Positions 13,601 through 58,300 of a stretch of 64,000 nt of DNA are shown piece after piece; positions within the stretch are counted from its first letter, which is position 1; each line of letters starts with the position of its first letter. The notes below the pieces were generated by a model. The model searched no databases. It had not been told where the DNA came from and saw only the letters and a program-made list of their open reading frames with translations. Origin of the DNA: Pocillopora damicornis (taxonomy: Eukaryota); the NCBI RefSeq assembly GCF_003704095.1, contig NW_020847569.1, positions 310,001 to 374,000 on the forward strand, written 5' to 3'. Made by a program: the position numbers and the translations under genes.

Positions 13601-14774
13601 TTAACTTTAATATATATTAACAAAGAATTGAAAAACAAAAAGGCCCCGCATCCCCAGGGGAAACTCGAGAGCTAGTGAAGACCTAAGGTTAATTTTTCAT
13701 CGCAAATCACTTTTTAAAATTTGTGTTCAATGCCTCTCACCAAATCTCGCTGAAAGCGCGTCATGTTCTCTTCCAAGGAACTAATCTTGATTACATCAGC
13801 AGACAGCTTTTCAACGGACGTAGTGAGTGCTGAAAAAAATAAAAGATTCCTTTCAGGCAATTCGTTTGAAATTGAATGAAAGAAGAGCTATGAAATTGCC
13901 AATCAAAAATATCTTCGTCAGAAAAAATGAATTCGCCTAAATTTGAATCAAAATCGATTCCTCCTCGATTCAAAAGTTACAGCATTTATCCAAAATTGTT
14001 ATTACCAGTATTATCATTATTATCAGCATTGTTATATATTTATTGTCTATAGTCAGGCCACCCGGTGCGAAGAGTTTAAAAACAAATCATCAGTTTTCAT
14101 AGAGGAAAAGAGTTATTACTTGCGGATATTTTGCGAGTTCCGCAGTATTTTTCCGAGCCCTGTAAGGATGATGAAATACAACAGCGACGATTAGATGTCA
14201 AACCATTGAATGAAGGATTTCTTATTCCACTACCATTTCATTTTGTAGTCTTTTAACTTATAATTTTAGAACTAGTTTGCAGACTGCGTGACATACGATT
14301 GTCAGACCATTGAAATGTGTTTTATGACTAACAAAAAAACTCTGATGCACTTAGTTGCTTTTAAGGTCAAACCTGAGAAAAGGAATAAAACCAAATTTTG
14401 GATGTTTTAGTGCGGCCATTTTGTTGCTTCGCTTTCAAATTATTATACTAACATATGTCTACTTGCTAACCTTCAGTTTTGGAGCAATCACATTTTTCAC
14501 CGAAATTCCCCCACAGCGACAGCAAACTCAGAATAATGGCGACGATGGAAAGTAAACACGCAAAAAAGAACAAGGGCAAATATCTCCCGTTCGATCGCCT
14601 TGCCGGGTGTGGTTTCTCCTCATGCGTTTCGTAAAGTGCGCTCCCTGGATCACTTGCTGCTCCAAAATTGGCCTCTTTTAAACTAATTTGTTTTAGTCCC
14701 AGCGACTCATTCGTGGCAGAATCGTCTCCGACATAACCTTTGTTTATAACGATTTTTCGAGATGAAGTAGGCAT
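7629..14774 (-). CDS. Gene A: type II transmembrane protein with coiled-coil stalk, EGF and USOMP5-like (fibrinogen-related) C-terminal domain, about 567 aa
   Basis: 11 phase-compatible GT-AG exons: 14774-14471 (MPTSS..tail, TM, CDC), 13829-13741, 12492-12412, 11706-11587, 11141-11049, 10431-10312, 9854-9762, 9629-9515 (EGF), 9044-8996 (AENCKEI), 8359-8230 ([14 protein letters not shown]), 8138-7629. The total is 1704 nt, open, and exon sizes match gene B. Domain name is from recall of coral protein annotations. Confidence 0.85.
13468..13510 (+). ncRNA. Minimal type I hammerhead ribozyme motif in a probable Penelope-like pseudo-LTR fragment (about 13444-13620)
   Basis: ACCC-CTGATGA-A-GGCACT(agacagg)AGTGTC-GAAA-TG-TT-GGGT: intact core, 6-bp helix II, 4-bp helix I and a loopless helix III. 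Confidence 0.65.
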
Positions 14775-17008: not shown

Positions 17009-20000
17009 TTACTGAACAAATACATATCCCATGGCTATGACATTTTTGTCACCATTGTCTGCTTGCAATGCTGCCACATTTCCACAGGTGTTGGAACCCG
17101 GGGCTGTACCAAAACCGATTCTTGAATCACAGCTACTGCAGTCATTTTGGTCGTTACCAAGGATGCCAATTCTTGCCCTAGGGCGCACAGCAGACGGTGT
17201 GCGTGCATTAAACCCTTCTTTATTGCAATTCAGTTGTAAGGAGCCGTTGGAACCAAGAAGCGACTTCCATGCATCACGACCAAGCGACGTATTACGATAT
17301 TCCCCGTCAGCAATTAATGAGTGCAAAGATTCAGCCGTCTTGTTAATCAAGATAAATTTTAATTCTTCGCCATTTTTCATACCAAGGCAGATCTTGGTAA
17401 AGTTTGTCTTCCAGTAAGTCGGTAGCTTAGTCTCTTGCTCATCAAACCCTGTCATTCCCCCCTGAATGTTCAATCCGGTCTCATTGCTCCAGATCTCAGA
17501 GTCATAATGGAAGGTGTTCTACAGAATGAGGATAGCATTATCAATTAACAACTATACTTTGCGATAAGAGATTACCCAATGTCAATTATCAATATTTTCA
17601 TTTTTTTTCATACGTTCGTTAGTTTCATTAATTTAAAACAATTTTCGTTCATTGCTCAAAAACTGAGTACAAATTTATTCTGGTAATCAGATACTATATC
17701 GTCTGTAGGCGAACCTCCGAGAAAATAAATCATTGTGCGCCGATGAAATTTATAAATCACCCGTTAGACACTTGAGTTTCTAGCAAGATGATCTAGAGAT
17801 GCAACATCTGTGATAACCATTTGTGTAGGGTGCAGAGACATCTCAGAAGCTTCTTATTTGTTAATGGCGAGAATAGAATCTAAAACGATTGTTATTCTAA
17901 CTTGAAAACCAAAATTTCTAAAAGAGTGACTTAAATCTCGTACATATTTATCAAACTATTCACAAGCGGCTTTCTTTTAAATTGATCAATACAAATACAT
18001 AAAAAGTGTAAAACTTAGCCGAGGAAAAAAACAAAACATTCCATTGCGTGGTAAATTCCTGTAATAGTTTTCTTCCGAGTTCCCTTTTTTCTTTTTCTTT
18101 TTGCTTATTTATTGATTCGTTTTGGCCTCTGTTTAATTTATTACTATAATGATTGAAAACTTGAATAAATTCTGTGCACCTTAGATCCATTGATCTTCAT
18201 AACCAGTGTCCAACCACCGTCTCCACACGGACCAAGACTCGTCACGTGACAATAGACTGAAATTGTATCTGATCCAAGCTTCAGAGGGAAGGATTGGTTA
18301 CTGACAGAGCTAGAAAAAGACGAATTTTGCTTTCAAAAGATATTGCTCTCAGAGGTATATTGTGGAGAATTTAAACTCGTAGGAATTGCATTGAACACTA
18401 CTTACATGCCCTTATCATCACTGTCATCGTTGATCTCCTTGCAGCTCTCAGCAGCTCAGGCAAAGTGAACATACCAGAAAGATTTATTAGACTCGAAGCT
18501 TAAGATGCATAATGATGCGTATACTTTAAGATTTGAGAGATAGCCTTACTTATTTAAGGATGGCCGGAAATGGTTGTCTAGAAACTGCTTTAGTAATGCT
18601 TATCTAGATAAACATTTGCTAGCAGCCAGAGGGCGAAAGTGCCCATTGAGATTCACATGTGTACCAGTTAATAATTAACACGTGCATAAAGTTGGCTGAC
18701 TTCATATGGGAAGCGAAAAAGCGTAAGAAACTGTCGTTCTCATGATTCTATTATCAACTGAAGAAAGTTATAGCTTTGCAATCATACCTTTGAAAATTGC
18801 TACCATCATATTACACTACATTTTTATGAATAACTAGTTTGCCTAGTTTACCTTACGCACATCTTTAAGCCAGAAAAAGTAATTGAGCAGTTTGTTGTAG
18901 AATTAATCTTACCTTTCTCACATATTTCTCCAACGAAACCTGGAGCACAAGCACATATGAATTTGCCCCTCTTGTTTCCTGGATAGCAGGTCGCTCCATT
19001 CTTGCATGGGTTGGAATAGCAGGGAAACTTGAAAAAATGAGGAAAAGTTGCTATAGAGAGTTCCTAATAACAATTATGAATAATGACAGATTTCTTCAGC
19101 GCCATATTCATTGGCGAGTCATGGCGCTTTACAACACGTTGCGAGGGACTCTGGCTAGACTGAATTGAGTAGATTAAAATTTTTGAAGGAAATTTGGGCA
19201 GATGCCCCCAATTTTTAGAATTAATGCAAGACCACAAATCGGGGAGCTACATCCCCTACTCCTTGCTGACCAGTACAGGGAAGATGCAGGAGACGAGACC
19301 TACGGATTTTCATTCTTATCCGAGAAGACTAGCAAGTCTAAATGTCATTTCAAAGGCAGCACATTCTCCTCAGCTAAATTTAAGATGCTGGGTGTTGTTC
19401 CAGTCTGGGGCTTCAACCTTCGACCTTCCGCACGGCAGCTCAGCCCGGCACTTTACAATACTGGCCAGGCGGCGGTTACAACAAGTTTATTGCATTGTTG
19501 TATTTTGACATTATGACAAACCTTTCTCAAAGTCTCCTTCAGCTCCATGACGTCAGAGTTAGTTCGATTCAGTGTAGAATTTAGCTGATACAGAAACGTG
19601 CCGAGCTTTTCCAGCTGAAAGAATAAGAAGACTGTACAGTCTATGAGAAGAGATTCTGTTGGAAATTGTATTCTTACTTTGATCGGCTGATTGGTAACTT
19701 ACTTTGGTTGTTCGATTGTTGTTTGCTCTATTTGCCGGTTGGACGTCACGTACTTCTTTTTATTAATTATCTCGCGATGAATTCTTAGATTTTTAACCAA
19801 CACCGAGATTAAAAAAAAAAAATTGCACCTCATACGCAAAGGATGTGTTGACGGCTTTTAGTGTCTGTCTTGTGTCATTGTCAGACGTCATGAGTTGGAA
19901 CTTTGATTGGTCCAAGTCTTTTCGTAAAGAGCTGACTCCTGAATCAGTCTATGCAGGGGAAAGACAAACTAATTGTTTCATCTTTTAAGAATTAGCGATT

Positions 20001-23000
20001 ATGTAATACCCATTTAACGTTAGAACATATGGGAATCTAATGTCAACAAATGCATAAAAACACTCTGGAGAAGGATCTAACTGTCAATCGTTCGCCGAGT
20101 TGGATATAATCTCGAATCGCGCGCATCAATTTTTGAAAAGAATGAGGTTTAAAAAATTAGATCAGAGTGAAACAGCGCCGACAACAAATTAACAAAAGAT
20201 TGAAAACCAAAGAGGTGCTATCTCAACAACCGAAGCGCGAGAGTCCACAAACGCTACAGTAGAGCTTAATGCAATCTATTTCTGAAACATGAATTAAATG
20301 CTCCTCACCGAATCTCGCTGAAGGCTGGTTATTTTCTCTTCCAAGGATTTTATCTTGCCTACATCAGTTATCAGTTTGTCAACGGACGCAGACAACGCTA
20401 AAAGAAAGAAAATTATCAAACACTCCCTCTGGGAAGTTCATTTAATTTAGCACAAATGAAGAGATATCTAATGAATTAGTTGCCAGGAATCGGATCCTTG
20501 TGTTTGCGGCAAAAGTTTTGGGATCGCCACGGGGCAAACATTGCAACTCGCTAGAAAAAAATGCATGCATATACAAGGAAGCGTAAGTTTTTGTTTGAAC
20601 AACCATGATCTATGTGGTAAAATCTACTAACTTTTCTCCATGCGCAATAGTTATTGTGAAATTGACAACGTGTAATGATCTCGGTTTATTGATATATTTT
20701 ATAATATATTTCACTGCAATTCTGAAAAAAAACCTTACACTTCCCTCGTATAAACATCATCTACATCCACTTATGATAAAAGTGCGATAAAAAAAGCGTT
20801 GATCTCTCTCTAAAATCGTTTTCGAACGTCGAAACAACCTTTCGCCATATATTTCCTTCTAGCAACTTGCAATGCTTGCCCAATGGCCATCCCAAAAATA
20901 TTTGCGCAAACACAAGGATCCGAATACTGGCAACTCATTCATTTTCACTCAAAAAGAGCATGCAATTCATTTAATTTATTTCTAAAGAAGAGATACAAGA
21001 ATTTAAGTTTTCATTCAAAATATCTTCGTAATGGAATACAAATTTTATTCCTCTTCGATTCAGAATTTTAGAAATGCATTTGATATCATTATGACTAACG
21101 CCTGTACCGCTAATTAAAGATTTCAGACTTCCTCTAGACTTTCATTTCCGAGAGAAATTAACTTCGATAAAATTAACCATTGAAAGGCTTCTCATTAGAA
21201 CCAATTGTTTCCCTTTTTTCACTTTACATTTTTTGCGATCAGTTATGCAATTTTGCCCGGATTGAACGATCGAATGTGATTTGAAGCGAGTTGTGCGAAA
21301 TCATCGTCACGCAATATCAGAAGCCGTTGTGATTTGAAGCCCAAGTTTTAGTAAACACGAAAAAGGAGATAAGAAATGTTTAATTATGTCACATTCTGGT
21401 ATCAGATGTAACCAGTGAGGCTCTGCAAAAGGTGAACAGACTCTGAAAAACCAAGTTCGTTTTGACCTTCCCGCTCATACGTTTTTCTATAGTTTTCCCA
21501 AGCGCGCGAACGTTGCATTTTCCAAGCGTTTTCCCCACAGAATTACTAACGGTGAATGCCATGAAAACATGTTGCTTGTCCATTGTTTTCCTGCTCTATG
21601 GAAACAGAAGTAAACAGCTTGCATTGTTTTTTTGTAGACTGAAGGAAAGTATAATCGTCCTAATACTCGATGTCTACGCTGCACGAGAAAAACGAGCGAG
21701 TCAAAAAAATCATTATCTATCCGAAAGAGTTCACACCTCTAAAAATTATTTCATGTCAAATTTTGCCCATCGTTATGGTTTGAACCTTATTTAGGACAAT
21801 GGCCCTATTTTTCCCTAGCCTCGAGGACTTTTTCATCGGATGTTTATGTCAAGCTCAGAAGCTAAAGCTCAACTGCCTCAAATGACCCAAACGGCTCAAA
21901 TGACCCAATCGTTGTCAGTACTCTGAATATTAAACAAGCTATTCACTGGCGTTTTCATGAGGCAGGATCAAGAGCAGGAAATAATGATCACGATCGATGA
22001 ACATGTTGTTTTCATGGCGTTTCAGAAAACAAACTGTTCATTAGCGTTTCCATGGAGCAAGAATATAATGGACGAACATCATGTTTTCTTTACGTTCACG
22101 TTCGTGTGTCAAAACACTTGGAGAATTCAGCGCTCGTACGCTCACGAAAACTACAAAAAAACAATGCAAGCTGTTTACTACTGTTTCCATAGAGCAGGAA
22201 AACAATGGACAAGCAACACGTTTTCATGGCATTCACCGTTAGTAATTCTGTGGGGAAAATGCTTGGAAAATGCNNNNNNNNNNNNNNNNNNNNNNNNNNN
22301 NNNNNNNNNNNNNNNNNNNNNNNNNNNNNNNNNNNNNNNNNNNNNNNNNNNNNNNNNNNNNNNNNNNNNNNNNTTTTTCAACCCTTTTTGTTACCAATTA
22401 ACCAAAGTAGTATTCGCCTAGCTACATCAGCTCTTGATTATACAAGATAACTGAATTGCCTCAAATGACCTAATCGGCTCTAGTCGCCCAACTGCCTCAA
22501 ATGAGCTAATCAGTTCCAGTGNNNNNNNNNNNNNNNNNNNNNNNNNNNNNCAACCAGCTCAGATAACTGAATTGCCTCGAATGACCCAATCGGCTCCAGT
22601 GGCCTAACTGCCTCAAATGAGCTAATCAGTTCCAGTGACCCTACTGCCTCAAATGACCCAATCCACATAAATGACCCAATTAGCTCAACTGCCTCAAATG
22701 ACCCAAACGGCTCAAATGACCCAATCGTTGTCAATACACTGAATATTAAACAAGCTATTCACGGGCGTTTTCATGGAGCAGGATCAAGAGCAGGAAATAA
22801 CACAGGACGAAATTGCAAGAATCCGTAAACGGAAACGTGGCAGAAACATGTTAAACCGTTCTGGAAACACGACGGATAACCTGTGTTTCCGTTACCGGTT
22901 TCGTGACGTTTTCTCGCGTTTCCGTTGCTGCGTATACAACGGAACCGGACCACTTTTTGTGCATGTTAAACATAACGGAAACATGGAGTTGCATGTTTCC

Positions 23001-26000
23001 GCCACGTTTCAGAAATACGGAAACATATGATTTCGTCCTGTGTAATGATCACGATCGATGAACATGCTGTTTTCATGGCGTTCTGGAAAACAAACTATTC
23101 ATTAGCGTTTCCATGGAGCAAGAATATAATCGACGAACATCATGTTTTCTTTACGTTCACCATTAATAATTGTGCGTGAAAACGCTTGGAAAATGCAGCG
23201 CTCGCACGCTCACGAAAACTACAGAAAAACATTCTGATAAACATTGCAAGCTGTTCACTACCGTTTCCATAGAGCGGGAAAAACAATGGACGAGCAACAC
23301 GTTTTCATGGCCTTCACTGTTCGTGATTCTGTGTGAAAACTCTTGGAAAATGCACCGTTCGCGCGCTTGGGAAAACTATAGAAAAACGTTCAGGAAACAA
23401 GCTGTACACTAGCGTTTTCGTGGAGCAGGAAAACAATCAACAAACATCATCTTTTCATTGCATTCACCGTTGATAACTCTGTGGGAAAACGCTTGGAAAA
23501 TGCAGCGTTCGCGCGCTCGGGAAAACTATAGAAAAACGTTCAGGAAAACAAGCTGTACACCAGCGTTTTCGTGGAGCAGGAAAACAATCGACAAATATCA
23601 TGTTTTCATGACATTAACCGTCAGTAATTTGTAGCAAAACACTGGGAAAATTTAGCGTTCGCGCACACAGGAAAACTATAGAAAAACTTTCAAGAAAACA
23701 GGCTATTCATTGGCATTGCAGGGTAACATGTGATGAACTGCGTGTTTTTCTTGAGTTTTACCGAGGGTGAACAGTAAATTTGCCATCCGTTTTCAGATAT
23801 CAGAAAACATTAGTATGATGTTGAATTTTTCAGTCTTTCACCATTTCGGAAAATTAACGATCTGTGTCAAAGCGCTATTTAAATTAGGCAATGCGCCATG
23901 TTCAATGAGCTACTATGTTCTAAGTCTAATTCGTCCTTAACTTGCCCCGTGCGCTCGAACTGCTAATTTGACCCTGGAAAAACACTTAACCCTCAAATAA
24001 GATCTGAGTACTTGCGTCATGTTAATAAGGAGAGGACTGAGTGGAGGATACACATCTGCCTGCATGCATTTATATATGAATCCTCTGATTACGTGCAATT
24101 AGTTGCTTCAAATTTAGTCCGAACCATTCAGGCACAGTTCACAGCTCGTTCAAAACGATTTTGTTTATATAGATGATGCCATAATGTTTTTCGTGAATCG
24201 TCTAGTAACACTGGTCAAATATTTTAATCGTGGCAAACCGGATCAACCTTGAGATTTCACCATTCCACATTATCGGATGGTCACCAAAGTTAAAATAATG
24301 GAAGCAATGATTATGATGAGAAACAAAATTTGTTAATTTCGTGATAGGCGTCTGCCTCGATAGCGATTCATGAGTCCTCTTTTCACGTGGAGTTATATTC
24401 CTTAAAGTCAGTCTGTACCACAGTGGCGCAGATCACATGTGCACGGTGGCTGGAAAAGTTTATAGATATGGCAGGATCCATATTTTATACTTTAATCTGA
24501 TCGGTAGCTACAGCCTATACTTTTGTGTGTAAAGTAGACCTTCCTGTCAACTTCCCCATCTTCCATTGCGGGATTAGCACCACTTAACCCTTTAACCCCA
24601 AAGATCTGATTGTTAATTCTCCCTTCAAGGTGCTTCACATTTCCTTATGAATTAGCTTAGAAGAATCAGGGAAACAACTTTTTCCTGATAGTTTTGGGTA
24701 TTCTCATTACCTATTTCCTGGATAATGAATGGATTTTGAAGGGAGAAGTAAGAGGTTAATCGCCTCTGGGAGTCAAAGTGTTAAGCAGCCTGACGTGGCT
24801 TTACCACATTTAGAACTATCTACGCAGGTTGTTGGAGTTCTAGCTCCTACAGCCTTCACAAAACGGTACCATCCTCGAAGAGCTGTGTGTCACAGAACGC
24901 TGCACCAAGTAGCGGTGTATCGTCAATGGTATTTCTATTGTCGTCACTCTGTTTCATAACAGGGACCGACTACAAATTTAAGAATTAATCTTAAAATAGT
25001 TGTAATCATTGCTATTGAGAATAAATTTTTGAAACGTCATTTAAGTTTGATAGTTTATTATTGCCCAGGATATGTTGATAACAAGTTAATTGCATCGCTT
25101 AGTTTTGTCTCAGAGATACCAATTCTTTGAGATTTCTTGAAAAGATCTTTCCTATCAAATAATTGACTAAAGGGAGAATTGATCAACGAACTGTTTCTCT
25201 CAGAAATTCTTCTTGATAAATTCAAGATGAAATCTCATTTAAAAAGCCAATCAAACCTAGATTAGTATATTTAAAAGGTGTCGGAAGGCGATTGGTGTAT
25301 CACCAATTGGTGTATCAAAAAAGGAGACAGGTATCTCAAAAAATCATCCTCTCACTTCCTAAAATTGGGAAATCCCTCCGAAGATTACACCCGAAAGGAA
25401 CAGTGGAATCGGTTTTGTTTTACTGAGGTCTGAAAAGTGAGAATTCATTGTCTCATGTAACCTTAAACTGATTACATGAAGAGAATTTGAATAGCAGGCG
25501 ATAGGAGGGTATGGCCTTTGGGAAAGTCATGTAGATTGATAACTGCAGCAGAGACACGTAAACTTATGATTACTTAGACGTGCTAATTGTCTTAATTAGG
25601 TTCAGTGTCGGTTATAACAAAAGCAACCAGAGTAACAGATCACACCTTCTCTGTTACCGGTCACATACACACAAATAAGCTTGAAAAGGTTATTTAATCA
25701 GGTTTCAACTGGTCGTCATTTCGGACCTCTTTCTGGTGTTGTTTTGTTTTTGTTAGAAAGGCTTGTAGAAGAGCTACTAGCGTAGAAATCATTGAGATTT
25801 TACCCATTTCACTCAACACGCTTTCCTACAAGATTCACCTGTTAAGGTATGATTTGGTCGAAATAAGGAATACTATACTCCTAAAATTTAAACTATTTTA
25901 TTAAACAACTTGTAATGATTCTTTCTCAGGAGCTACTCCTCTAGGCGATATACTCCTACAGGCAATACTCCTTTAAGCTTACTTGAGCCCACTACAGATT

Positions 26001-29000
26001 ATAACTTAGCTCTTTACTAACGTCAAAGACTCACTCTTGCCTCAAAATACGCAATCTTTGAAGTATATCGCAGTACTAAGCAATATTTTGGTAGAGCTTC
26101 TTAGTATTGTTTTTGTATTTTCTGACAAAAGAACTACTACTCCTAGCTTAGTCCTTATATACATTCCCAATGTATTTTAAAATATTTGGTTATTCGAATC
26201 TTACAACACAACTATTGTGGTAGAAATAGATCATAACTACATGAACTAATAGAATGTTTTAGTTTTCCAAGCTATGTCATCAGAAAGTTCGATTATCAAT
26301 GTCTTAGTGACTAAAAATTCTAGAAATTGTTTTCAGACTCCATCCATAACGCACCTAACACGATTTAGAAATCCTTGTAAATGATGATGCATGACTAAAC
26401 ATAATAAACAATTGGCCTATAATCACGGATCGCCGTGACCCATCGGTGAAGGCTTTTCGACAGAATAACAACTACATGTAAAGAAGGCTTGGGCATCAAA
26501 AGCTGCTTTAGTTTGTAACGACCTGAGTAAACAACAAGAGTTCAAAACGTTTAGTAATAAGCAAAATGCAATGCTCAAAGTTGTGCTTAAGACTTACTTA
26601 GTGAAGCACTTGATTGGAATAGATAGAGATGAAATTAAGATTATTTGGAAGCTTACTAATGCCCATGGTTCTTGACATTAGCTGAGGGAGGGCTGGGGGG
26701 GTTTGTTCTAATACTCGGATAAAAACAGTTGTTCAGTCGCCTCTAATGATGATTTCCGCTTAGGCTAGAGAAACGTCAGTCACTATTACTACCACCTCGA
26801 GTCACAACTTCTCATGAGTACTCTTACGTGAAAGATCAAACTACGCGGTCCAATGGTACTCCTCTATTCAAAATTCTCACTGTTTAATATTAACCATAAA
26901 CAGTGGATCATGTGAAATTCATTAAGTCCCTGTTATACATTAATGTACTTGTGTGAATCCTTTCGCTGTGCAGAATGACTTGCTTACAGCATTCAGTCTG
27001 TGCCACAGTAGCGCAGATCACAAGCAGGTGGCTTTAGTAGTTTGTAAATAAAGTAGGATCCGCAGTCTTTCACATTTATGTCAATTGATTTCTTGCAACA
27101 TTCTCTACCTCTGGTAAAGCAGACCCCGGNNNNNNNNNNNNNNNNNNNNNNNNNNNNNNNNNNNNNNNNNNNNNNNNNNNNNNNNNNNNNNNNNNNNNNN
27201 NNNNNNNNNNNNNNNNNNNNNNNNNNNNNTTAGGCGGGTTAACCCACCTTGACACGTTTACATGGCAAATTGTCACCCCGGCTGACCGGGCTACTCTACC
27301 TGGCAGACCGGGCAACCCACCCAGGCGGGTCACCCCACCTATCATGTAAACGTGATCAAAAGAAATTTTATGGTCAGGCGGGTTACCTCACCTAGGCGGG
27401 TTACCTTACCTACCTGGGGTCCTCCACCTCCATGTAAACTGGCCCTAAAGGGAGAATTGATCAACGAACCTGTTTCTCTCAGAAATTCATCTTGATAAAT
27501 TCAAGATGAAAGCTCATTTAAAAAGCCAATCAAAGCTAGATAATATTTATTATATTTAAAAAGTGCCGGAAGGGAATTGATGTATCAAAAAATGAGACAG
27601 GTATCTCAAAAAATCAACTCCCTCCGAAGATTATTGATCATTCACCCGAAGGAACAGTGGAATCGGTTTATTTTTACTGACATCTGAAAAGTGAGAATTC
27701 ATTGTCTCATGTAACCTTAAACTGGTTACATGTAGAGAATTTGAATAGCAGGCGATAAGAGGGTTTGGCCTTTGGGAAAGTCATGTAGACTGATAAGTGC
27801 GACAGAGACACCTTCTCCGTTACCGGTCACATACACACAAATAAGCTCGAAAAGGTTATTAAATCAGATTTTAAATGGTCGTCATTTCGGACCTCTTTCT
27901 GGCGTTGGTTTGTTTTTGTTAGAAAGGCTTGTATAAGAGCTACTAACGTAGACATCATTGATATTTCACACATTTCACCCAACACGCTTTCCTGCAAGAT
28001 TCACCTGTTCAGGTATGATTAAGGAATACTATACTCCTACAATTTAAACTATGGGTGACTTGAAATGATTCTTTCTCAGGAGCCACTCCTATAGGCGATA
28101 CATTAATTGTCCTTTAAGCTTACTTTAGCCCACCAGAGACCATAACTTAACTCTCTACTGACATCAAAGACTCACTCTTGCTTCAAAATCTCCCCAAAAT
28201 ACGCAATCTTTGAAGTATATCGCAGTAATGAGCAATATTTTGGTAGAGCCTCTTTCTCATCACCTGAATAATAAATGGATTTTGTAGGAAGAAGTAACAG
28301 GTTAATCGCCTGTGGGAGTCAAAGGGTTAAACAGCGCAGGTTGGCTTTACCACATTTATAACTATCCANNNNNNNNNNNNNNNNNNNNNNNNNNNNNNNN
28401 NNNNNNNNNNNNNNNNNNNNNNNNNNNNNNNNNNNNNNNNNNNNNNNNNNNNNNNNNNNNNNNNNNNNGTGTCTCAAGCAAAATCGACCGGACCGCTCTT
28501 ACAGAGACACTCTCTTAAGGTTAAAATAGCAGAATCTTATTTGCCAGAGCAGCAATACATGTTTTACTTTGCAAGAGTGAATTGGTACTCAGTTCATCTG
28601 GAACGTTTTTCACATGGAGTGCCAGTGGAAATCTGGTGTAACTCATTTGATCTGTTTGGCCAAGCATGTTTCATGCCAGTTCAGAGAATTAAATCCAACT
28701 GTTCTTTAGGAGAAAAAGTTTACAAACAAGAAAATGTTCTCGGAGTAACAAGTTAGACTGATATAAGGCTGCATTGCACTGATTTTTTATTTTGAGTTTA
28801 AAAACTACTGACGTACAAGTTATTAAAATGCAATGATAAAATATAATGATTATGTCTTCCACGTCGTTGTATTTTGCATATGCTTAGCTCATATACTGCA
28901 TGCGGAGAGACTCAGCAAAATTCTATTTCTGATATAACTACCCATTAACCACAAATTACCAAACTGGTACAAATGAGCCATGGGACCAGCAATACCAAAC

Positions 29001-32000
29001 TGGACATATGACCCAATTGACACAAATGATCCAAGAGACACAAATGATCAAAGAGACACAAATGATCCAATAGACAAAATGATCCAACAGACAAAATGAT
29101 CCAACAGACACAAAATGATCTAAAAGGCACAAATAATCCGACAGACTCAAATGATACAACAGAAACAAACAACCCAATAGACATGAATTATCCAATAGAC
29201 ACTAATGGCCCGCTAGACCACAGGATATGATTGGCCATATCTCTAACAGATACAAATTATGTAATCATTTGATCCAATCAGACTCAACTGCCTCAAATGA
29301 CCCAATCAGCTCAAATGACTGAATTGCCTCAAATGACCCAATCAGTCCCAATTAGCCAACTGCCAAAATGACCCAACCAGCTCAAATAACTGAATTGCCT
29401 CAAATGACCCAATTGGTTCCAGAGGCCCAACTGCCTCAAATGAGCTTTTCAGTTCCAATGAGCCAACTTCCTCAAATGACCCAATCAGCTCAAATAACCG
29501 AATTGCCTAAATGACCTTATCAGTTCCAATGAACCAACTGCCTCAAATGACCCAACCAGCTCAGATGATGGAATTGCCTCAAATGAGCTAATCAGCTCCA
29601 GTCGCCCAACTGCCTCAAATGAGCTAATCAGTTCCAGTGACCCAACTGCCTGAAATAACTCAATCAGTTCCAATAAGCCAACTACCAAAATAACCCAACC
29701 TGCTCAGATAACTGTATCGCCTCAAATGGCCTAATTGGCTCCAGTGGCCCAACTGCCTCAAATGAGCTAATCAGTTCCAGTGACCCAACTGCCTCAAATG
29801 ACCCAATCCACATAAATGACCCAATAAGCTCAACTGCCTCAAATGACCCAAACGGCTCAAATGAACTAATCGTTGTTAATACTCTGAATATTAAGCAAAC
29901 TATTCACTGGCGTTTTCATGGGGCAGGATTAAGAGCAGGAAATAATGATCACGATCGATGAACATGTTGTTTTCATGGCGTTCCAGAAAACAAACTATTC
30001 ATTAGCGTTTCCATGGAGCAAGAATATAATGGACGAACTTCATGTTTTCTTTACGTTTACCGTTAATAATTGTGTGTGAAAACACTCGGAGAATTGAGCG
30101 CTCGTACGCTCACGAAAACTACAGAAAAACATTCTGTTCAACAGTGCAAGCTGTTTACTGCCGTTTCCATGGAGCAGGAAAACAATGGACGAGCAACATG
30201 TTTTCGTGGCCTTCACTGTTCGCGATTCTGTGTGAAAACACTTGGAAAATGCAACATTCGCGCGCTTGGGAAAACTATAGAAAAACGGTCAGGAAAACAA
30301 GCTGTACACTGGCGTTTTCGTGGAGCAGGAAAACAATCAACAAACATCATGTTTTCATTGCATTCACCTTTGATAACTCTGTGGGAAAACGCTTGGAAAA
30401 TGCAGCGCTCGCGCTCGGGAAAACTTTAGAAAAACCTTCAGGAAAACAAGCTATACACTAGCGTTTTCGTGGAGCAGGAAAACAATAGAAAAACATCATG
30501 TTTTCATGGCATTCACCGTTAGTAATTCTGTGGGGAAAATGCTGGGAAAATGCAGCGTTTGCGCTCTCGGGAAAACTATGGAAAAACGTTCAGGAAAACA
30601 AGCTCTACACTAGCGTTTCCGTGGAGCAGGAAAATAATAGACAAATATCATGTTTTCATGACATTAACCGTCAGCAATTCTGTGGGAAAACACGTGGAAA
30701 ATGAAGCGTTCGCGCGCACAGGAAAACTATAGAAAGACTTTCAAGAAAACAGGCTATTCATTGGCATTTTCCTGGTGCAGGGTAACATGTGATAAACTTC
30801 GTGTTTTTCTTGCGTTTTACTGAGGGTGAACAGTAAATTTGCCATCAGTTTTCAGATATCAGAAAACATTGGTATGATGTCGAGTTTTTCAGTCTTTCAC
30901 CATTTCGGAAAACTAACGATGAACAAGGGTTTTTGTGCCATGAAGTGAATTCGAAAGAGAACAAGCCTAAAGGACAGGTCATTGAAAGTCAGTTTTCTAC
31001 AGTCTCCCCTTTAGAATCTGTTGATGACGTCTGATCCTCTATCCTTTTCCCCTGACAACCATATGATTCCCCCAAAAACTGCTCTCCCCCCCTCCTCCCC
31101 CCTCCCCTTAACCAGGCGATAAGTAATGAATGATCCCTAACTTAATCTGATGAATCCAATTTTCCTCATTTTCCTTGTTTTTGTAATGATTCAATGCTTT
31201 TTTTTTATCTTTAGCCTTATCGCCGAAGCAATTTACGACTTTTTTCTTCGATGGTGGATCCTATTTTTTCATTCTTTGATAAAATCGACTTTACTTGCCG
31301 GTAAAGAAAATTGTTTCNNNNNNNNNNNNNNNNNNNNNNNNNNNNNNNNNNNNNNNNNNNNNNNNNNNNNNNNNNNNNNNNNNNNNNNNNNNNNNNNNNN
31401 NNNNNNNNNNNNNNNNNAAAACAATAGAAAAACATCATGTTTTCATGGCATTCACCGTTAGTAATTCTGTGTGGAAAATGCTTGGAAAATGCAGCGTTGC
31501 GCTTGGGAAAACTATGGAAAAATGTCCAGGAAAACAAGCTATACACTAGCGTATTCGTGGAGCAGGAAAACTATCGACAAATATCATGTTTTCATGACAT
31601 TAACCGTCAGTAATTCTGTGGGAAAACACGTGGAAAATGAAGCGTTCGCGCACACAAGAAAACTACGGAAAAACTTTCAAGAAAACAGGCTATTCATTGG
31701 CATTTTCCTGGTGCAGGGTAACATGTGATGAACTTCGTGTTTTTCTTGAGTTTTACCGAGGGTGAACGGTAAATTTGCCATCCGTTTTCAGATATCAGAA
31801 AACATTAGTATGATGTCGAATTTTTCAGTCTTTCACCATTTCGGAAAACTAACGATGAACAAGGGTTTCTGTGCCGTGAACGTGTTGATTTTAGGCGAAA
31901 TATTTTCGGTCAAACAACTTTTGCCAAACAGTAGTATCCTTTGACCTTTTTTATGGCCCAAGAGAATTTAGGATAAAATCTGGGATGATTTTACAGTTTA

Positions 32001-32391
32001 AATATGAACACGACACGAGACTAAAAAATCCTCATTGATGTAACAAGAAATTCTCTTTTGACTGACATTTTTTTCTTTACTAACCTTCAGTTCCGCAGCA
32101 ATCACATCTTTTGCCGAGTTTACCCCATACCAGCAGCAAAGTCAGTAAAAGGGCAGCGGTGGAAACCAAACACGCAAAAAGAATTAAGCCCAAATATCCC
32201 TCGTTTGACCGCCTTGCTGGGTGTGGTTTCCTGTCGAGCGTTTCGTAAATTGGATCATTTGCAGCTCTAAAATTTGCGATGTTTTCTTTTGAATTTTCTC
32301 TGATTTGTTTCAGTCGTGTCGGTTTTTCAGTGCCAAGATAGTCTACGATGTAACCTTCGTTTAAAGCGGGTTTTCCAAAGGAAGAAGTCAT
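17009..32391 (-). CDS. Gene B: type II transmembrane protein with coiled-coil stalk, EGF and USOMP5-like domain, about 470 aa; tandem paralogue of gene A
   Basis: Exons 32391-32085 (tail, TM, CDCC), 20397-20309, 19948-19829, 19614-19522, 19027-18913 (EGF), 18454-18406 (weak GAG acceptor), 18309-18180, 17518-17009. The total is 1413 nt, open. The first intron is 11.7 kb, repeat-filled and gapped, so linking exon 1 relies on homology and phase. Confidence 0.82.
19075..19480 (-). mobile_element. tRNA-headed SINE, probably of the Nin/Deu-domain type, in a gene B intron
   Basis: Central gagacctacgg..ttatccgagaagactag..aaaggcagcac..ctcctcag block, degenerate tRNA head at about 19400-19475 and an AT-rich tail. 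Absent from the equivalent gene A intron (9630-9761). Confidence 0.65.
21860..23861 (+). repeat. Two partial copies of a composite element (18-bp-based minisatellite, linker, ~150-bp tandem units, tail); an inverted fragment lies at about 21478-21640
   Basis: ctgcctcaaatgacccaa arrays. ggagcaggaaaacaat units at 23422 and 23573 (period 151). Linker and tail are the same as in 29870-30942. Confidence 0.85.
22801..23042. mobile_element. 242-bp MITE with CACAGGACGAAAT terminal inverted repeats and TAA target duplication
   Basis: TAA[cacaggacgaaat...atttcgtcctgtg]TAA. The empty site ggaaataatgatc is seen in sister copies at about 21977 and 29938. Confidence 0.9.
24584..24784. mobile_element. piggyBac-like MITE of about 200 bp
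   Basis: TTAACCCTTTAAC...agtcaaagtgTTAA, same family as 61556-61768. Confidence 0.7.
25167..28250 (+). repeat. Local direct duplication: about 25167-26098 versus 27445-28250
   Basis: Collinear diverged blocks beginning ctaaagggagaattgatcaacgaa and ending gcaatattttggtagagc. Also 24410-24480 resembles 26993-27062. Confidence 0.85.
27231..27445. mobile_element. PIF/Harbinger-like MITE, right part; the left part is in an N-gap
   Basis: GC-rich ggcgggttacc subrepeats and the terminus catgtaaactggccc followed by TAA. The paralogous site (about 25168) has TAA without the element. Confidence 0.65.
28469..30942 (+). mobile_element. Probable CACTA/EnSpm-type DNA transposon 3' remnant: transposase C-terminus, minisatellites and terminus
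   Basis: ORF 28469-28756 ([24 protein letters not shown]) resembles the C-terminus of animal EnSpm-like transposases (recalled, not searched). 18-bp-based array at about 28980-29870 and ~150-bp units at 30171, 30322, 30471 and 30623. The sister copy ends ...TGTGCCGTG. Confidence 0.55.
31418..31878 (+). repeat. Further copy of the 3' end of the composite element
   Basis: Closely matches about 30479-30942. Ends aagggtttctgtgccgtg about 200 bp from gene B exon 1. Confidence 0.85.
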
Positions 32392-51063: not shown

Positions 51064-51152
51064 CGTTTTTATCCACTGCAGCGCAGCTTATAAACGATCC
51101 TGACAAGTTCAGGGCCTTGGAAGAGGACATAACTAGTCTGGGATGAGGCTTA
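51064..51152 (+). pseudogene. Decayed homologue of the 89-nt exon 2 of genes A and B, upstream of gene D
   Basis: Reads AFLSTAAQLINDPDKFRALEEDITSLG*GL versus [30 protein letters not shown]. In-frame TGA at 51144-51146, donor GCGAGG, and no AG at the homologous acceptor. Confidence 0.65.
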
Positions 51153-51668: not shown

Positions 51669-52353
51669 CCTGCGGTCATAAAAAGCCTCTATGACAAACT
51701 CCCCACCACAATCACCTCAATAAAGATACAGAGCTCAATATTGACGATTAAGTAAGAAAAAATGGTCAAAATATGGTCCAAAAGAATGGTCAAAAAAATC
51801 TTTCAAAAGTGGTCTAACAGCTCATGTTTTATCCTGTACGACTTCAGCTCCTTTAGTTCAATTTTTTTATTCTAGTGTCCATGCCCTATTACATGCTTCC
51901 GAAATCTTTCCCTTATGTGCTTTCACTTTCTGTTCGACAGGATGGCTATAAACTTGTATTAGGAATTTACCTCTTCTTAATACCATGTATACCAATTTTC
52001 TATTCAGTGAATTTTATTTTTAAAACAGTTCACAAACCCGTTAAACCTTTAGAGTGACCAGCATTCAAATTCTCCTTACAATAATACTGTGGCGCTCATT
52101 AAGATCACGAGAATAAAGGAAATGATCGCCAACCAACGACGCTTTGATTGATAAACGAACTCTCCTTGTCAGTCCCAAATGAAAATATATAGAGAATATG
52201 GATGCTGATGTTAGGAAGTAAAGGGTTAAAAACAGCAGATATGGCTGCTTAGACTTACCCACCTGACTGAATTGTTCATGTGCTTGATTATTGACGAAGT
52301 CTGTTAGTGATAATTTGAACTCATTGCTGTAGTTTCGTATTTTCACAACACAG

Positions 52354-55300
52354 ATAAGTTCGGGGCTTAATTCTTTACGGGATGATTTTGACCAATCAAA
52401 GATCAAACTCATGGAGGCTGACACCGAGACAAGGGAGTCACTCACAAGCGTCAACTCCTCTTTAACTGAGAAGGTTTGAAGTTGTCTGAATTAAACGATG
52501 AGTGTCACTTTCGTATCAATTAGTAAACCCGTCGGAATGAAAAATTTCTATAAGCGACCATGACAGAATTTCTCTTTATAATATCAATCGAAGAATAAGA
52601 GAGATGGAAAGTTTTGAGCTCGGTAAAGAAATAGAGAAAGATTATTTTTGTCTTGTCACGAACGTAGGACAAAGAAAAAATTCTGAGTCCCCAGGCTCGA
52701 TTCCGCATAAGGACTCAGAATTTTTTCTTTGTCCCACGCTCGTGATAAGATGAAAAACATCTTTCTTAATATCAATACGATATCAAGAAGACGATGACGA
52801 AAATTAAGAAAAAAATCAATTAGGAAATTATAAGTTGATTCGATACCAAATTCTCCGAATTAACATCACATGAATTGTATGAGAGACAGAAAGAAGAACT
52901 ACTTATGAGATCTAGGGAGTGAAAGAGTTAAAAATTAACCAAAAAATCCTCCCAGGGCCCCAACTAACACCCAATCGACTAAATTGAACTAACAAGCTTA
53001 CATTGCTAAGCAACGTGCAAACTCGCCAGGCAACCGACCACTAAGAGGCCAAATGAAAAGTGAAATTTAGAAAAAACCCTCAAAATGACACAAAATACAA
53101 AAAAGACTAGACACCGACCAAATCAACGACAACTGAAACCAAAAAAATTATAAAAGGAAGGAAGCAACCATTACCGATTTTTCGTCCAAATGGAAATAGA
53201 AATTTCGTACGGACAGTTCGCATGCAAACCATAAATTGCTAACATGGGGCTAAACAAACGTTGCATTACTTTCCTTGATCTCCTCCTTCCCCCCTAAGGG
53301 GTGCAAGTATTCCAGGCTAAGCACTTCAACTTTAAGACTGGGACTCATGGGATCTCTAATCATGTTGTCATTTCAGCTTCAAAAGCCGGACTCCTCTCTG
53401 AAGCAGTTGACCTCTGCACTAAATATAACAAGCAACAAGCTAGCTAAGATCAACGACACCTTAAAAGAGGTCGGTGATATGATATCTGGTGATGATTTTT
53501 TCCGAGTAAGGCATCAGATTAATTCAGTCATCAAGAAATTATGCACGTCAAAAGACAAACTGAAAGCGTTCAATTACAAGCTGTTAATATTTCTAAATTG
53601 CTTCCCCTTTCAAGGCTTATTGCTGTCCCAATCCTTGCCAAAACGGAGGAACCTGCTATCCAGGAAACGAATGGGTCATATTTCAATGTGTATGTACTCA
53701 AGATTTCACAGGGGAAAGATGTGAATCACGTACGTTATTTCTCTGGAATATGCATGCGTTTATATCAATACATTTTTTAAAAAACGCAGGCCAAAATAAT
53801 CTAATCCCAATGACAAATTAAGAGCCGCCTGTTGGCAACTCATTGAAAACAGCTAATATCAATGAATTTCGGTACGAAGAAAAAAACATGTTTTATTTGT
53901 TTTTTTATATATATATATCTATCAGGCCATCTTATAGAGTGGCTTAAAATGAGAACTTAGGTTTGCGATTTCTTTGGGGCAGATTGATCCTTTAACATCT
54001 TAGCTCTCAATATTAGATTATTGATTCTCCACTCTACCTTCCGCAAATTTCCTTGTGAATCAGTAACGAGAATTGGTGTTACATCAAGATAAAAAGCTCT
54101 ATCTGATAAGCCTGAGTTCTCTCTTTACATGTTTGCTGGATAATGTATGAATAGTACAAGGAGGAGTCACATGTCAATCACTTCTGTGAGTTAAAGGGTG
54201 TATAAAATGCTGGGGGTAATTTTGCGATGGATAAGCAGCTCATCCATGGGGAACGCCCAGTCATGCGTCCTTCCTTAGTATAAGTTTCAGTAGAGTGACT
54301 TCATCTTTCTTTACTTGAAGGTCCTGCCATTCATGTTGTCATCCGAAGCGAAGGTTGCGAAGATAACGCGCCAGGCGTATGTGGCAAAGCTTACATCCAA
54401 GTGAATGGAGCGGAATACTCCCAAAAACATAATGTCGTTGTTGTGCAGGGAGCGACAGGTAAAGTGTCCACGCACATTATATGAGATCAATCGCGCAACT
54501 GCGTACCAACGCCTCCCTTAAACCAGCGATCGTCAACTGATAACAAGTTAGGGTTGACGTTTGGTTAGAGGAGGGGTAGGTGCCCAGTTGCTCAGATACT
54601 AACATTGATCCAATGTTGGTGATAAAAGAGAGGTTTGTCTGTTTTAGAACATTGAACTTCTAAAGTCTTATTTTGGTTCGGCATTTATCTTCCATTTTTT
54701 AATTTAATTCAATTTCGTTCCGGTCAAGTGTTATCCAACCGTGCATTTGACACCCATGGAAGTCAGTCCGAAGGTGTTCGCCTCAGGGACTATCTCAATG
54801 CCATAAGAGGAAAGTATGTAGCCTACTGCATGGGTTCACTCATCGAAGCAGAGCGCGACAATAAGACAGCGCGATCGTAGCAGCGGACTCAAAAAGAGAG
54901 AGAGACTGGTTCGGGTCGGGTCGAGAGTTAACCTAGATGTCTGTTTTTCTCTTGAGCCAACAAAAGACATATGTAGTTTTTATTACCCTTTTTGAATTGA
55001 AAGTGCATTGCGATTGTCGAAACATTTCAGGAATGCACATCACACCATCATACTCTTGCCATGACCTAGAAAAACTTCATCTGCGTGTTTTTATTCACCT
55101 GCATATTAAATCATGTAAGGAACCAATGATTTAGTGATAGCCTGGGAAAGGGAAGGAGTTGGAGAATTTTAAGGGGGGGATAAGTCATCGCAAATAGAGT
55201 ATAAAGGGGGTCTATAAAAAATTGACTATCAACTAACTGCCCATGGGGGGGGAATCATAAGGATATTACAGAGCGGGGGGGAGGGGGGGGTCAGGTTAAT

Positions 55301-58300
55301 ATTATCTTGGCATAACCAAAATCCCCCCAAACTACCCCTCCCCTCGAAGGCTAATGACCAGTCCCTAAACTGGAATCATTTTTTTTATTATTTTGGACTT
55401 AGTTTATAAGCCTCTTTTAATAAACCAGTCAAATGCTTATTCATTTTTAAGTTACATCGTTTTGGTGGCCATTGGAGACGAGGGTTCATTACATGTATCA
55501 CCAGCAATCAACGCTCTTAAGAGATTGGGCGCAAGTGATCCCGACGTTACAGTGAAGTTGAGGGAGTCGTATGCTCTTATTGGCTACGCAGGAGACAACA
55601 AACCATCTTGGATTGAACAAAAAAGTGCCAGAAAAGCAAATGGACCCAGTATTATATCTTCTAGAATTCTCCTAAAATTATGTAAGTTGAGGCATTTTAC
55701 ACCACAAACTTTACTTGATATAAGATAATGATCTATTTCAAGTTTCAAAAAACAAATATTTTTTCTAAATTCAAGAAGCATACAACTGATTTTCTGGAAT
55801 GTGTATACATGTATTCATGCATTTTTGTTGTAATATCCGCCGTAAATACTATCATCTTGTGCGAGAATTAAATCGGTCCCAGAAATAACACATAGCTACA
55901 ACGTACAAGATTAAAAGGGCCGGTTATTTATACGAGGTCAAATCCAAATCACGGTTTTAAGCAATCAGTGGGCCTTACGCTCTCTCTTTTAAAGAGGGTT
56001 GATTTAACGAAATAAATGTCCTTCCACTGTTAACTTTTGGCCATTTTGACACTGTTCACAAAATTAAATGTCCGATAATAGGTTCAGAAAAATTGAGTAA
56101 TTTTCAGAACGCGGTTTTGTTAAACAATGGCTAAACTTTGTTTAAATAGCTGGCCCAAAGCATCCTGCTGGCTGGAAAAACGGAGAATGAGTTGTGGCGG
56201 ACTTTTTTAATATTTTCAATTTCTTGTTTTATTTTTTATTTGTCATGTCATTCCTCAAACCTCTCTTTTTGGTCACCCTTTAAATATGACGTCAGCCCAG
56301 TTTTTCTGCCATTGTCGCCAAATTCTTCCAAATTGGCAGGAGATTCGATCAAAAAAAGCTGATCATTGGTGGTTTACCACTGCCTGTTTAGCCTACGGCC
56401 AAACTCTCACGTTTGGGTTTCCTGTGGGCTTTCGCACGACTAAGGTACGAGCCGGGAGGGGGATCTTGAGACGAGAGTCTCTCCACAAGCCAATGAATTT
56501 ATAATTTTCTGAGTTTATCCACGAACGTAGCATTATGACAATGGTCAGACAAATTACAGAGGAATCAGCAAAGGTTATTGCAAACAACACTCTTTTTGAT
56601 GCCCAGAATGCTGGAAATTACATTCCCAAGCCTCTTACGGCTCTTTTTCAGGCACATCTTCAATAACACTACCAGCGGCCACTTATGAAAAAAGTTGTCA
56701 AAGCCCCTTCACTGTAGACAGTTATTCCCACACTGTAAGTTTGGAGAACCTCATCTCAGTAAATATCTTCATCGTCATTTTTGATGCCAATAACCAACAA
56801 AATAAGTAGAATTGGAATTAAACTCATCGGACATATTTACTTCCTTAAAAATATGAGATATGTTTTTCTCCTTAACTCAGATTCTAGGAGCTGCATGGAA
56901 CTCTATGAATACAATACGTATAAGAACAAGTAAGTAGCATTTATTCACCCAAAAGTGTTGAAAATCTCAAGGTGAGGTGCAATTCGATGTTACGCTTTAA
57001 TTTCGTTGCCTTTCAAATAACCAAAACTAAGCTTTGTATGGGAGAGCAGATTCACAAGCAGACCAGTTTTGTTGGTAGTACCTGAGCCATTTTACTCTTA
57101 AGATCTCATTAGTAATTCACCTTCCTGACTGCCATTTGTTAGCTTGGAGAATTTGATATTGGATCAACTAATAATCCCCTGATTGATATTTTTTTTAATT
57201 CTCGTCTGCTTGATGTTGTGTTGATATTGTAAGGAGAAATCCTGTCAGTCTTGGGCACTTCTTGAAGTAAACGGGTTAGATCAATTTTAAGCCTTCATAT
57301 TTGACAAATCTACTTTGAGGTAAATGATACATCCATCATTTTATTGAAATCATTTCTACTTAGAATAACTGCATTCGTGGTTCATCCTCTTCTCTTCCTG
57401 AAAAGAGTCTTTTTTTCATCAGCTTAGATAAAATACTGTATTAAATTGGAAAGGGGATACCCTATGATCTTTTACTCTTTTATTGTGCTTTATTAACTTT
57501 TAAAAGTACAGTTTTTTAACTTTTTTCGAAAGCAATGTCAGTGACCAAGCCTATCCTTTGAAGCTTGGATCAGGCATTTATCCAGTTTACTGTCAGATGA
57601 CTACTATGCTTAATGCATGTGGAAGCGGCGGTTGGACTCTGGTTATGAAGATGAATGGTTCTAAGGTGAATATTCATAAATAAAATCACCGTTTGGGATC
57701 GAGTGTCCTAAAACCAAAGCCAAGTATTCACAAATGCCAATCAAAATAAAGGAAACTACCTTTAAGGACCAATGAGAACTTAAAGTCCAAACAACAAAAC
57801 TGTCTAAAGCGCGGGAAAAAGCGGGCGTGATTGGTTTTTGTTTTGAATCTGATTGGTTGAGAAAAAGGCGCAAGTTTTCTGGACCAATCCCAAAGCAAAG
57901 TAAAGTAAACTTTCGACATCCATTTGAAAGTCTCCTACGCACGGTGTCTGACAGCAGCAGACTTCATCAAGTAGTTTTCAGAAGTAAGATTAAAAATATC
58001 GCTCATATACTGATTTTAAATTATATGCCTATTTCAACCTCTGCACGAGTTAGGAGGCAAGCGAAAAATACTCTCAATGTTTGCCAAAGGTGTTGTTAGA
58101 TGTTAGAGTGAGTCATGTGTTACCCGCTTTTTCACACTTAAATTCTTTTATTTTTAAGTTCATTACCCTCGTAAGTGAAAATTTGTTTTACCTAAATAAA
58201 CAAACAAGCTAAGAAATTGACAAGATAAGAAAGTAAGAGTACAAACAAGATAAAAGCTTTGTTAACGAGTTTTGTAGAACTGTTTTCGATTTACACCGGC

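What the first reader, a model, noticed from the sequence alone, without database searches (positions are those of the whole stretch)
54321..55681. ILEI/GG-lectin domain inserted as a symmetric phase 1-1 cassette
In A and B the EGF exon splices directly to the 49-nt SCKE exon. In D, three exons encoding a complete ILEI/PANDER-type domain (FAM3, POMGnT1 stem, CEMIP GG family) lie in that intron, flanked by phase-1 introns. This is a clear exon-shuffling event with the uninserted state present in neighbouring paralogues. It places a putative carbohydrate-binding domain in tandem with the head.
Basis: partly seen in the sequence, partly recalled or inferred. Interest (0 to 1): 0.7.

Follow-up and report, generated by a model that had tools for sequence, protein, structure and literature searches.

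The report
Shuffled lectin cassette in decaying gene
A three-exon module for a FAM3/ILEI-type, likely sugar-binding domain sits in frame inside one coral cell-surface gene whose neighbours lack it; it likely entered by ordinary exon shuffling long ago, and this copy of the gene now carries several breaks and is likely dead.

Summary
Three ILEI exons (54321-54458, 54723/54729-54813, 55452-55681) lie in frame between two phase-1 introns of gene D, in a slot that is a plain 470/458-nt intron in paralogues A and B. The same three-exon module recurs in this genome in other settings (tandem arrays, after EGF, before F5/8-type-C domains). D is the only one of 150 scored USOMP5-like head matches found beside it. 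A Stylophora orthologue model holds the middle exon in the same slot, so the insertion likely predates the Pocillopora/Stylophora split. One polyA contig splices exon 1 to exon 2.

No transmembrane exon was found, there is an in-frame TGA at 51144, a GT>GC donor, and the middle exon's acceptor reads CG. A 9-nt deletion removes the Arg equivalent to POMGnT1's sugar-binding R129. Other Pocillopora records carry different lesions. No full-length ILEI-plus-head protein was found.

Verdict: real class 1-1 exon shuffling of an ILEI/GG module into a fibrinogen-related type II membrane gene, likely once functional, now likely a pseudogene in Pocillopora. The mechanism is textbook; the module's mobility in corals was not found in my literature searches.

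The parts
51082..51152 (+). First surviving stalk (coiled-coil) exon of gene D; in-frame TGA at 51144-51146; donor reads GC
   Evidence: Homologous to exon 2 of A and B, which have CGA and a GT donor there; 16 of 23 residues identical to Stylophora P0277, which has Arg at the stop
52354..52473 (+). Stalk exon of D (120 nt, phase 0-0), open
   Evidence: 27 of 39 aligned residues identical to P0277; AG/GT ends
53377..53469 (+). Stalk exon of D (93 nt, phase 0-0), open
   Evidence: 24 of 31 identical to P0277; homologous to A and B
53615..53729 (+). EGF exon of D (115 nt, phase 0-1)
   Evidence: Pfam EGF 27.3 bits; 57% identical to A and B and the same length
54321..54458 (+). ILEI exon I1 (138 nt, phase 1-1); lacks 2+3 codons against other copies, including the RG motif
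   Evidence: no gap against runs X1, X8, X10 over the 9-nt deletion; the RG motif is present in P. meandrina record P0308
54723..54813 (+). ILEI exon I2 (91 nt from the homologous acceptor, which reads CG here; 85 nt from the cryptic AG, start 54729); phase 1-2
   Evidence: Pfam ILEI 16.6 bits; acceptor comparison; RNA joint 54457>54722 in X1; 19 of 29 identical to P0277
55452..55681 (+). ILEI exon I3 (230 nt, phase 2-1); keeps the D179- and R207-equivalent residues
   Evidence: Pfam ILEI 30.3 bits, over cut-off; alignment to POMGnT1 stem
56881..56929 (+). 49-nt SCKE-type exon, start of the head (phase 1-2)
57533..57665 (+). Second head exon (133 nt, phase 2-0)
   Evidence: 32 of 42 identical to P0277
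59216..59725 (+). Last exon: USOMP5-like, fibrinogen-related head
   Evidence: 81% identical to Stylophora P0127/P0277; profile hits to serum lectin, fibrinogen beta, intelectin-1
7629..14774 (-). Paralogue A: complete 10-exon, 541-aa TM-stalk-EGF-head gene, uninserted state (intron 9514-9045)
17012..32391 (-). Paralogue B: TM-stalk-EGF-head gene, uninserted state (intron 18912-18455); not assembled exon by exon

Best explanation
A three-exon ILEI/GG module bounded by phase-1 introns sits in the phase-1 intron between the EGF exon and the head of gene D; it likely entered by intronic recombination before Pocillopora and Stylophora split, likely gave a type II membrane protein with a predicted sugar-binding ILEI domain in front of a fibrinogen-related head, and the Pocillopora copy is now likely a decaying, weakly transcribed pseudogene. 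Shown: exon positions, phases and open frame; ILEI identity; the same module in other genes of this genome; absence from A, B and the wider family; one spliced I1-I2 junction; the lesions in this assembly. Inferred: direction (insertion, not loss), the recombination mechanism, the age (from one automatic gene model), past function, sugar binding, and pseudogene status across the genus.
For: Phases and frame. Module is generic: phase-1 acceptor and donor at exon 1 in 9 of 9 other copies inspected, AG at the exon-2 acceptor in 10 of 10, phase-1 donor after exon 3 in 8 of 11 (2 end in a stop as terminal domains, 1 runs into a gap). Direction: D's head groups with Stylophora P0127/P0277 (support 0.99) and is sister to A, B and P0012 (0.91) in a 135-row tree; 0 of 120 listed family proteins carry PF15711; ILEI matches (19, 31) and 150 scored head matches share only the window's contig. 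Age: P0277 holds the I2 peptide between stalk and head and it groups with D's module (90/71, weak). Past constraint: branch to D dN 0.15-0.22 against dS 0.27-0.88 in 9 of 10 three-point estimates (the tenth pairs two near-identical copies: 0.32 and 1.33); a neutral module of this size stayed stop-free in 57 of 2000 runs at 0.3 substitutions per site. Decay: TGA at 51144, GC donor; no transmembrane exon within 20 kb or in the genome search, which found only A's and B's, with no N gap in the region; CG acceptor and 9-nt deletion also in run X8; a 604-nt skip without splice ends that removes the EGF exon in X1; P. meandrina record P0308 starts in another frame; 12 of 16 exonic variants taken from the read tables are non-synonymous, near the 3.3:1 neutral ratio.
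Against: All cassette lesions in this assembly keep the frame, and all three exons are stop-free, which fits continued selection as well as recent decay. X1 splices I1 to the homologous I2 acceptor, so some haplotype or species likely keeps AG there. 20 of 30 listed D-head records end normally; the 5 frameshifts near the end fall close to an A run and may be assembly errors, and no intact paralogue served as control. Variant counts come from low-depth contigs and a cut table (151 rows hidden). The stop at 51144 and the missing transmembrane exon were seen in this assembly only. P0277 is an automatic model that skips EGF, I1, I3 and the SCKE exon, so the Stylophora cassette is not shown to be whole. 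The dN/dS signal cannot be split into time before and after the insertion, and dS is near saturation.
Confidence: 0.68

Rival explanations
1. D is a working gene in at least some Pocillopora haplotypes; this assembly carries a null allele or has lost the first exon, and the full TM-stalk-EGF-ILEI-head protein is made.
For: Spliced I1-I2 junction at the homologous acceptor in a polyA run, and a second haplotype at exon 2 shared by X1 and X10; RNA contigs in X1 and X4 start at 59214 with 161 and 51 further letters, as spliced heads would; frame kept through the cassette; RG motif kept in P0308.
Against: No D-like protein of 295 aa or more among 120 listed hits, best identity 65%; named records of D are partial or split (P0001, P0279, P0308); different lesions in different records; X1's own allele carries the RG deletion and X1 also holds the EGF-exon deletion.
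Confidence: 0.17
2. The cassette arrived by shuffling but was never part of a useful protein: it was skipped or harmful, and its conservation dates from the donor gene.
For: No contig joins EGF to I1 or I3 to SCKE, and X1's contig runs on 73 nt into the intron after I2; D's module lies on a long branch (0.44+0.16); the Stylophora RefSeq record P0127 holds only the last two exons.
Against: I2 is kept in both genera at 66% identity, like the stalk exons (69-77%); all three exons remain stop-free with intact GT donors; RNA coverage is too thin to show skipping.
Confidence: 0.1
3. The three exons are a separate small ILEI gene nested in D's intron, as the automatic annotation (P0001) has it.
For: P0001 and P0308 are annotated as stand-alone 186-aa models; stand-alone secreted ILEI proteins exist in corals (P0129).
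Against: P0001 is marked partial, has no start or signal peptide, and reads through a consensus phase-1 donor; both outer boundaries match D's intron phase; the Stylophora model links I2 to D's exons.
Confidence: 0.05

Closest known systems
Class 1-1 exon shuffling of extracellular modules in Metazoa (Patthy 2021, PMC8001218; passages read)
   Same: A domain bounded by phase-1 introns, inserted into a phase-1 intron of an extracellular modular protein, uninserted state in paralogues.
   Different: The module is ILEI/GG, split by two internal introns; the words ILEI, PANDER, FAM3 and coral do not occur in that review's main text.
ILEI/PANDER domain PF15711: FAM3A-C, POMGnT1 stem, TMEM2/CEMIP GG domain
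   Same: Pfam hit over cut-off; profile hits to TMEM2, FAM3B, POMGnT1 stem, FAM3C, FAM3A at E 3.5e-21 to 2.3e-14; a confident model of coral relative P0129 (pLDDT 89.6) matches these folds at TM 0.58-0.70.
   Different: Carries an extra Cys pair in exon 1 shared with other coral copies; lacks the R129-equivalent in this haplotype; embedded in a different protein.
Coral USOMP5-like proteins (name from database records; USOMP-5 is a skeletal-proteome orphan in PMC3748352, passages read)
   Same: Head 49-65% identical to the 120 listed members; TM-stalk-EGF-head layout as in A and Oculina P0080/P0085/P0099.
   Different: None of the 120 lists an ILEI domain; D is the only head found beside one in this genome.
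Coral and other EGF-ILEI, PAN-EGF-ILEI and ILEI-F5/8-type-C proteins (P0318, P0319, P0139, P0157, P0004; automatic records)
   Same: Same ILEI module, often directly after an EGF.
   Different: There ILEI is the terminal head or precedes discoidin domains; no fibrinogen-related head follows.

Membership tests
ILEI/PANDER (PF15711) | Score over the Pfam gathering cut-off (27 bits) | tested here: met
   I3 alone 30.3 bits; record P0001 63.5 bits
ILEI/PANDER (PF15711) | FAM3/GG beta-beta-alpha fold | tested here: inconclusive
   Shown for relative P0129, about 50% identical in alignment A1, and for the Atlas's model of P0001, TM 0.60-0.70 over its 7 rows, 0.68 to the POMGnT1 cluster; D's own spliced peptide was not folded
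GlcNAc-binding FAM3/POMGnT1-stem lectins | Arg129, Asp179, Arg207 triad (PMC9802357, passage read) | tested here: not met
   Mapped by the 50 and 28 residue spacing in the 5ggj alignments: Asp and second Arg present in I3; first Arg deleted with its Gly in this haplotype; all three present in P0308
GlcNAc-binding FAM3/POMGnT1-stem lectins | Measured carbohydrate binding | not testable with these tools
   Needs a binding assay
Class 1-1 shuffled module | Phase-1 introns at both domain boundaries | tested here: met
Class 1-1 shuffled module | Same module with the same boundary phases in unrelated genes | tested here: met
   C4317 tandem array, C2136 and C847 before F5/8-type-C domains, C4013 after EGF
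Class 1-1 shuffled module | Uninserted state in close paralogues, insertion as the derived state | tested here: met
   A and B introns 470 and 458 nt; head tree; midpoint-rooted fast tree, no topology test run
Class 1-1 shuffled module | Module included in the mature mRNA of the host gene | tested here: inconclusive
   Only the internal I1-I2 joint seen, one contig at depth 3.6; outer joints not seen in the 4 RNA-type runs laid
USOMP5-like / fibrinogen-related head | Sequence homology to USOMP5-like records and to fibrinogen/intelectin N-terminal subdomain | tested here: met
   profile E 1.3e-4 serum lectin, 3.2e-4 fibrinogen beta, 3e-3 intelectin-1; Atlas features 0.92-0.94; no Pfam hit
Functional type II membrane protein gene (as A) | Transmembrane exon and open frame from start to head | tested here: not met
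   No transmembrane exon found; TGA at 51144; A has both

The most novel reading that the evidence does not exclude
ILEI/GG is an undescribed mobile class 1-1 lectin module of stony corals, and in Stylophora or other pocilloporids gene D still makes a type II membrane, coiled-coil receptor with two sugar-binding heads in tandem (ILEI, then an intelectin-like domain), an architecture not found in any other family member examined.
Probability: 0.3. Interest if true: 0.5.

Novelty: new variant of a known kind. Interest (0 to 1): 0.3.

Why it matters
It is a clean, datable example of class 1-1 exon shuffling in a non-bilaterian, with before and after states side by side. It shows that a domain known mainly from vertebrate FAM3, POMGnT1 and TMEM2 behaves as a mobile building block in coral extracellular proteins. 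If an intact orthologue exists it would be a candidate glycan receptor (symbionts, mucus, microbes; my inference). The mechanism is textbook and this copy is likely dead, so the practical interest is modest.

Tried and rejected
A suspected frameshift near 52400 was my misreading; the exon is open. The two stalk exons of P0277 missing from D are not counted as a lesion, since B also appears to lack that pair. The first read-laying (4 runs, 11.7 kb) was swamped by intronic repeats; absence of cover over EGF, I3 and SCKE in RNA contigs is not evidence of skipping. Two scans of metagenome contigs found nothing. The AlphaFold model of the head was poor (pLDDT 46.6) and was not searched. The donor gene was not resolved: D's module falls in an open group with the C4013 copies and Oculina P0129 (83/85). 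No homology between D's flanking introns and the A/B introns, so the insertion point cannot be mapped. A blastp cross-check found 0 proteins with both domains among 124 head and 126 ILEI proteins of 276; P0277 was fetched afterwards and does hold the head plus one ILEI exon. Earlier findings: four look-ups returned nothing. Literature: searches listed no paper on a coral ILEI module (listings only); supplements were not opened and could hold domain tables that mention it. No complex prediction was run, as no binding between proteins is claimed.
Full report
Setting. The window is G000:C4204:310001-374000. Its ILEI reading frame is identical to a record named Pocillopora damicornis pdam_00002367, partial (P0001). 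Four genes end in the same head exon: A, B and C on the minus strand, D on the plus strand. Database records call this head USOMP5-like. A profile links it weakly to serum lectin, fibrinogen beta and intelectin-1 (E 1.3e-4 to 3e-3), and the Atlas places it with fibrinogen-C/intelectin clusters. A is a complete 10-exon, 541-aa gene: cytoplasmic tail, transmembrane segment, coiled-coil stalk, EGF, head.

The observation. In A and B a 115-nt EGF exon is followed, across 470 and 458 nt, by a 49-nt exon, with no ILEI remnant. In D the same interval is 3151 nt and holds I1 (54321-54458, phase 1-1), I2 (to 54813, phase 1-2) and I3 (55452-55681, phase 2-1); the joined frame is open. Pfam ILEI scores I3 at 30.3 bits (cut-off 27), I2 at 16.6, and P0001 at 63.5. 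A 37-sequence profile hits TMEM2, FAM3B, the POMGnT1 stem, FAM3C and FAM3A. A confident model of coral relative P0129 matches the same folds. D's own spliced peptide was not folded.

The module is mobile. I3 has 19 matches in the genome and the Pfam family 31. The copies lie as seven tandem units on C4317, before F5/8-type-C domains on C2136 and C847, and after EGF exons on C4013. Boundaries are shared: phase-1 acceptor and donor at exon 1 in 9 of 9 other copies inspected, AG at exon 2 in 10 of 10, and a phase-1 donor after exon 3 in 8 of 11, with 2 terminal and 1 at a gap. This is the class 1-1 pattern described in PMC8001218 (passages read).

Direction and age. D's head groups with Stylophora P0127/P0277 (0.99) and is sister to A, B and P0012 (0.91) among 135 rows. 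None of 120 listed family proteins (of 159 passing the threshold) carries PF15711. Of 150 scored head matches in the genome, only the window's contig also carries ILEI matches. Insertion into D is therefore the parsimonious reading (inference). The Stylophora model P0277 matches D exon by exon (66-81% in the six exons it shares) and holds the I2 peptide between stalk and head, so the insertion likely predates the split of the two genera. That model skips EGF, I1, I3 and the 49-nt exon, so the Stylophora cassette is not shown to be whole. The donor is unresolved. Along D's branch dN is 0.15-0.22 and dS 0.27-0.88 in 9 of 10 three-point estimates, and neutral decay would usually have put in a stop (57 of 2000 stop-free at 0.3 substitutions per site). 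This shows long constraint on the module but not how much came after insertion.

Its first surviving exon has an in-frame TGA at 51144 where A and B have CGA and P0277 has Arg, and the donor reads GC. No transmembrane exon was found within 20 kb either side, in the gap to gene C, which has no N, or in a genome search that found only A's and B's. The I2 acceptor is CG. I1 lacks 6 and 9 nt. The 9-nt loss removes the Arg-Gly that aligns with POMGnT1 Arg129, one of three sugar-binding residues named in PMC9802357 (passage read; mapping); the Asp179 and Arg207 equivalents remain. Run X8 has no difference from the window over the CG acceptor and the deletion, so these are not assembly errors. Other records show other lesions: a 604-nt skip without splice ends that removes the EGF exon in X1, an apparent frameshift in I1 of P. 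meandrina P0308, and altered ends in 10 of 30 listed head records (5 frameshifts, 3 lost stops, 2 early ends). Some of these may be errors or contig ends, and there was no control gene. Of 16 exonic variants read from the tables 12 are non-synonymous (5 of 6 in the cassette), near the neutral 3.3:1; the sample is small and one table was cut.

Expression. One polyA contig of X1 (depth 3.6, 73 letters on the short side) joins I1's donor to the homologous I2 acceptor and then runs 73 nt into the next intron. The cassette exons are thus recognised in at least one haplotype, which likely keeps AG there. Joints EGF-I1, I2-I3 and I3-SCKE were not seen in the 4 RNA-type runs laid (X1-X4; X1, X2 again), but cover was thin and the tables were cut.

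Mechanism. Most likely (0.68): intronic recombination copied the 1-1 module into D's phase-1 intron, a permissive slot that in gene C holds a calcium-binding-type EGF exon of 123 nt (read). The product would be a stalked type II membrane protein with a GlcNAc-type lectin domain before a fibrinogen-related head. In Pocillopora the gene has since been decaying. Rivals: still functional in some haplotypes (0.17), never functional (0.10), separate nested gene (0.05).

Novelty. The mechanism is known. The ILEI/GG domain as a mobile coral module and this architecture did not appear in five literature searches (listings only, supplements not opened) or in earlier findings of this scan. PMC3748352 (passages) already names domain shuffling as a route for coral skeletal proteins. 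New variant of a known kind; interest 0.3.

Noticed in passing
window 47530-47408 (-), gene C: A 123-nt phase 1-1 exon that looks like a calcium-binding EGF (label from recall) fills the same EGF-to-head slot in gene C, a PAN-EGF-head gene; the slot takes different 1-1 modules.
   Followed up: partly
G000:C4317:81262-113402: Seven tandem three-exon ILEI modules, apparently one or more poly-ILEI genes.
   Followed up: partly
G000:C2136:76760-87321 and G000:C847:323482-349527: ILEI module followed by repeated F5/8-type-C (discoidin) domains, like protein P0004.
   Followed up: partly
G000:C4013:180992-183629: A damaged ILEI copy: exon 3 follows an EGF exon, exons 1-2 were not found in between. 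Its exon 3 shares motifs and the first 10 intron letters with D's I3, a possible closest relative, but the tree does not join them.
   Followed up: partly
window 53439-54042: Run X1 holds a contig that skips these 604 nt without splice-site ends, removing the EGF exon and part of the stalk exon; likely a deletion allele.
   Followed up: partly
window 51473-51659, 52051-52227, 57137-57260, 58810-58968, 60305-60501; 52635-52766: Copies of a very abundant short dispersed repeat in D's introns, and a 132-nt imperfect palindrome.
   Followed up: no
window 4435-6810 (-): Broken frames that look like a LINE-type endonuclease and reverse transcriptase (label from recall).
   Followed up: no
window 38839-41981 (-): Several open frames of 55-133 codons between B and C that may belong to another gene.
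   Followed up: no
G000, many contigs: The USOMP5-like head family is very large: 196 candidates, 150 scored, in clusters, a good number with internal stops, which fits birth-and-death turnover.
   Followed up: no
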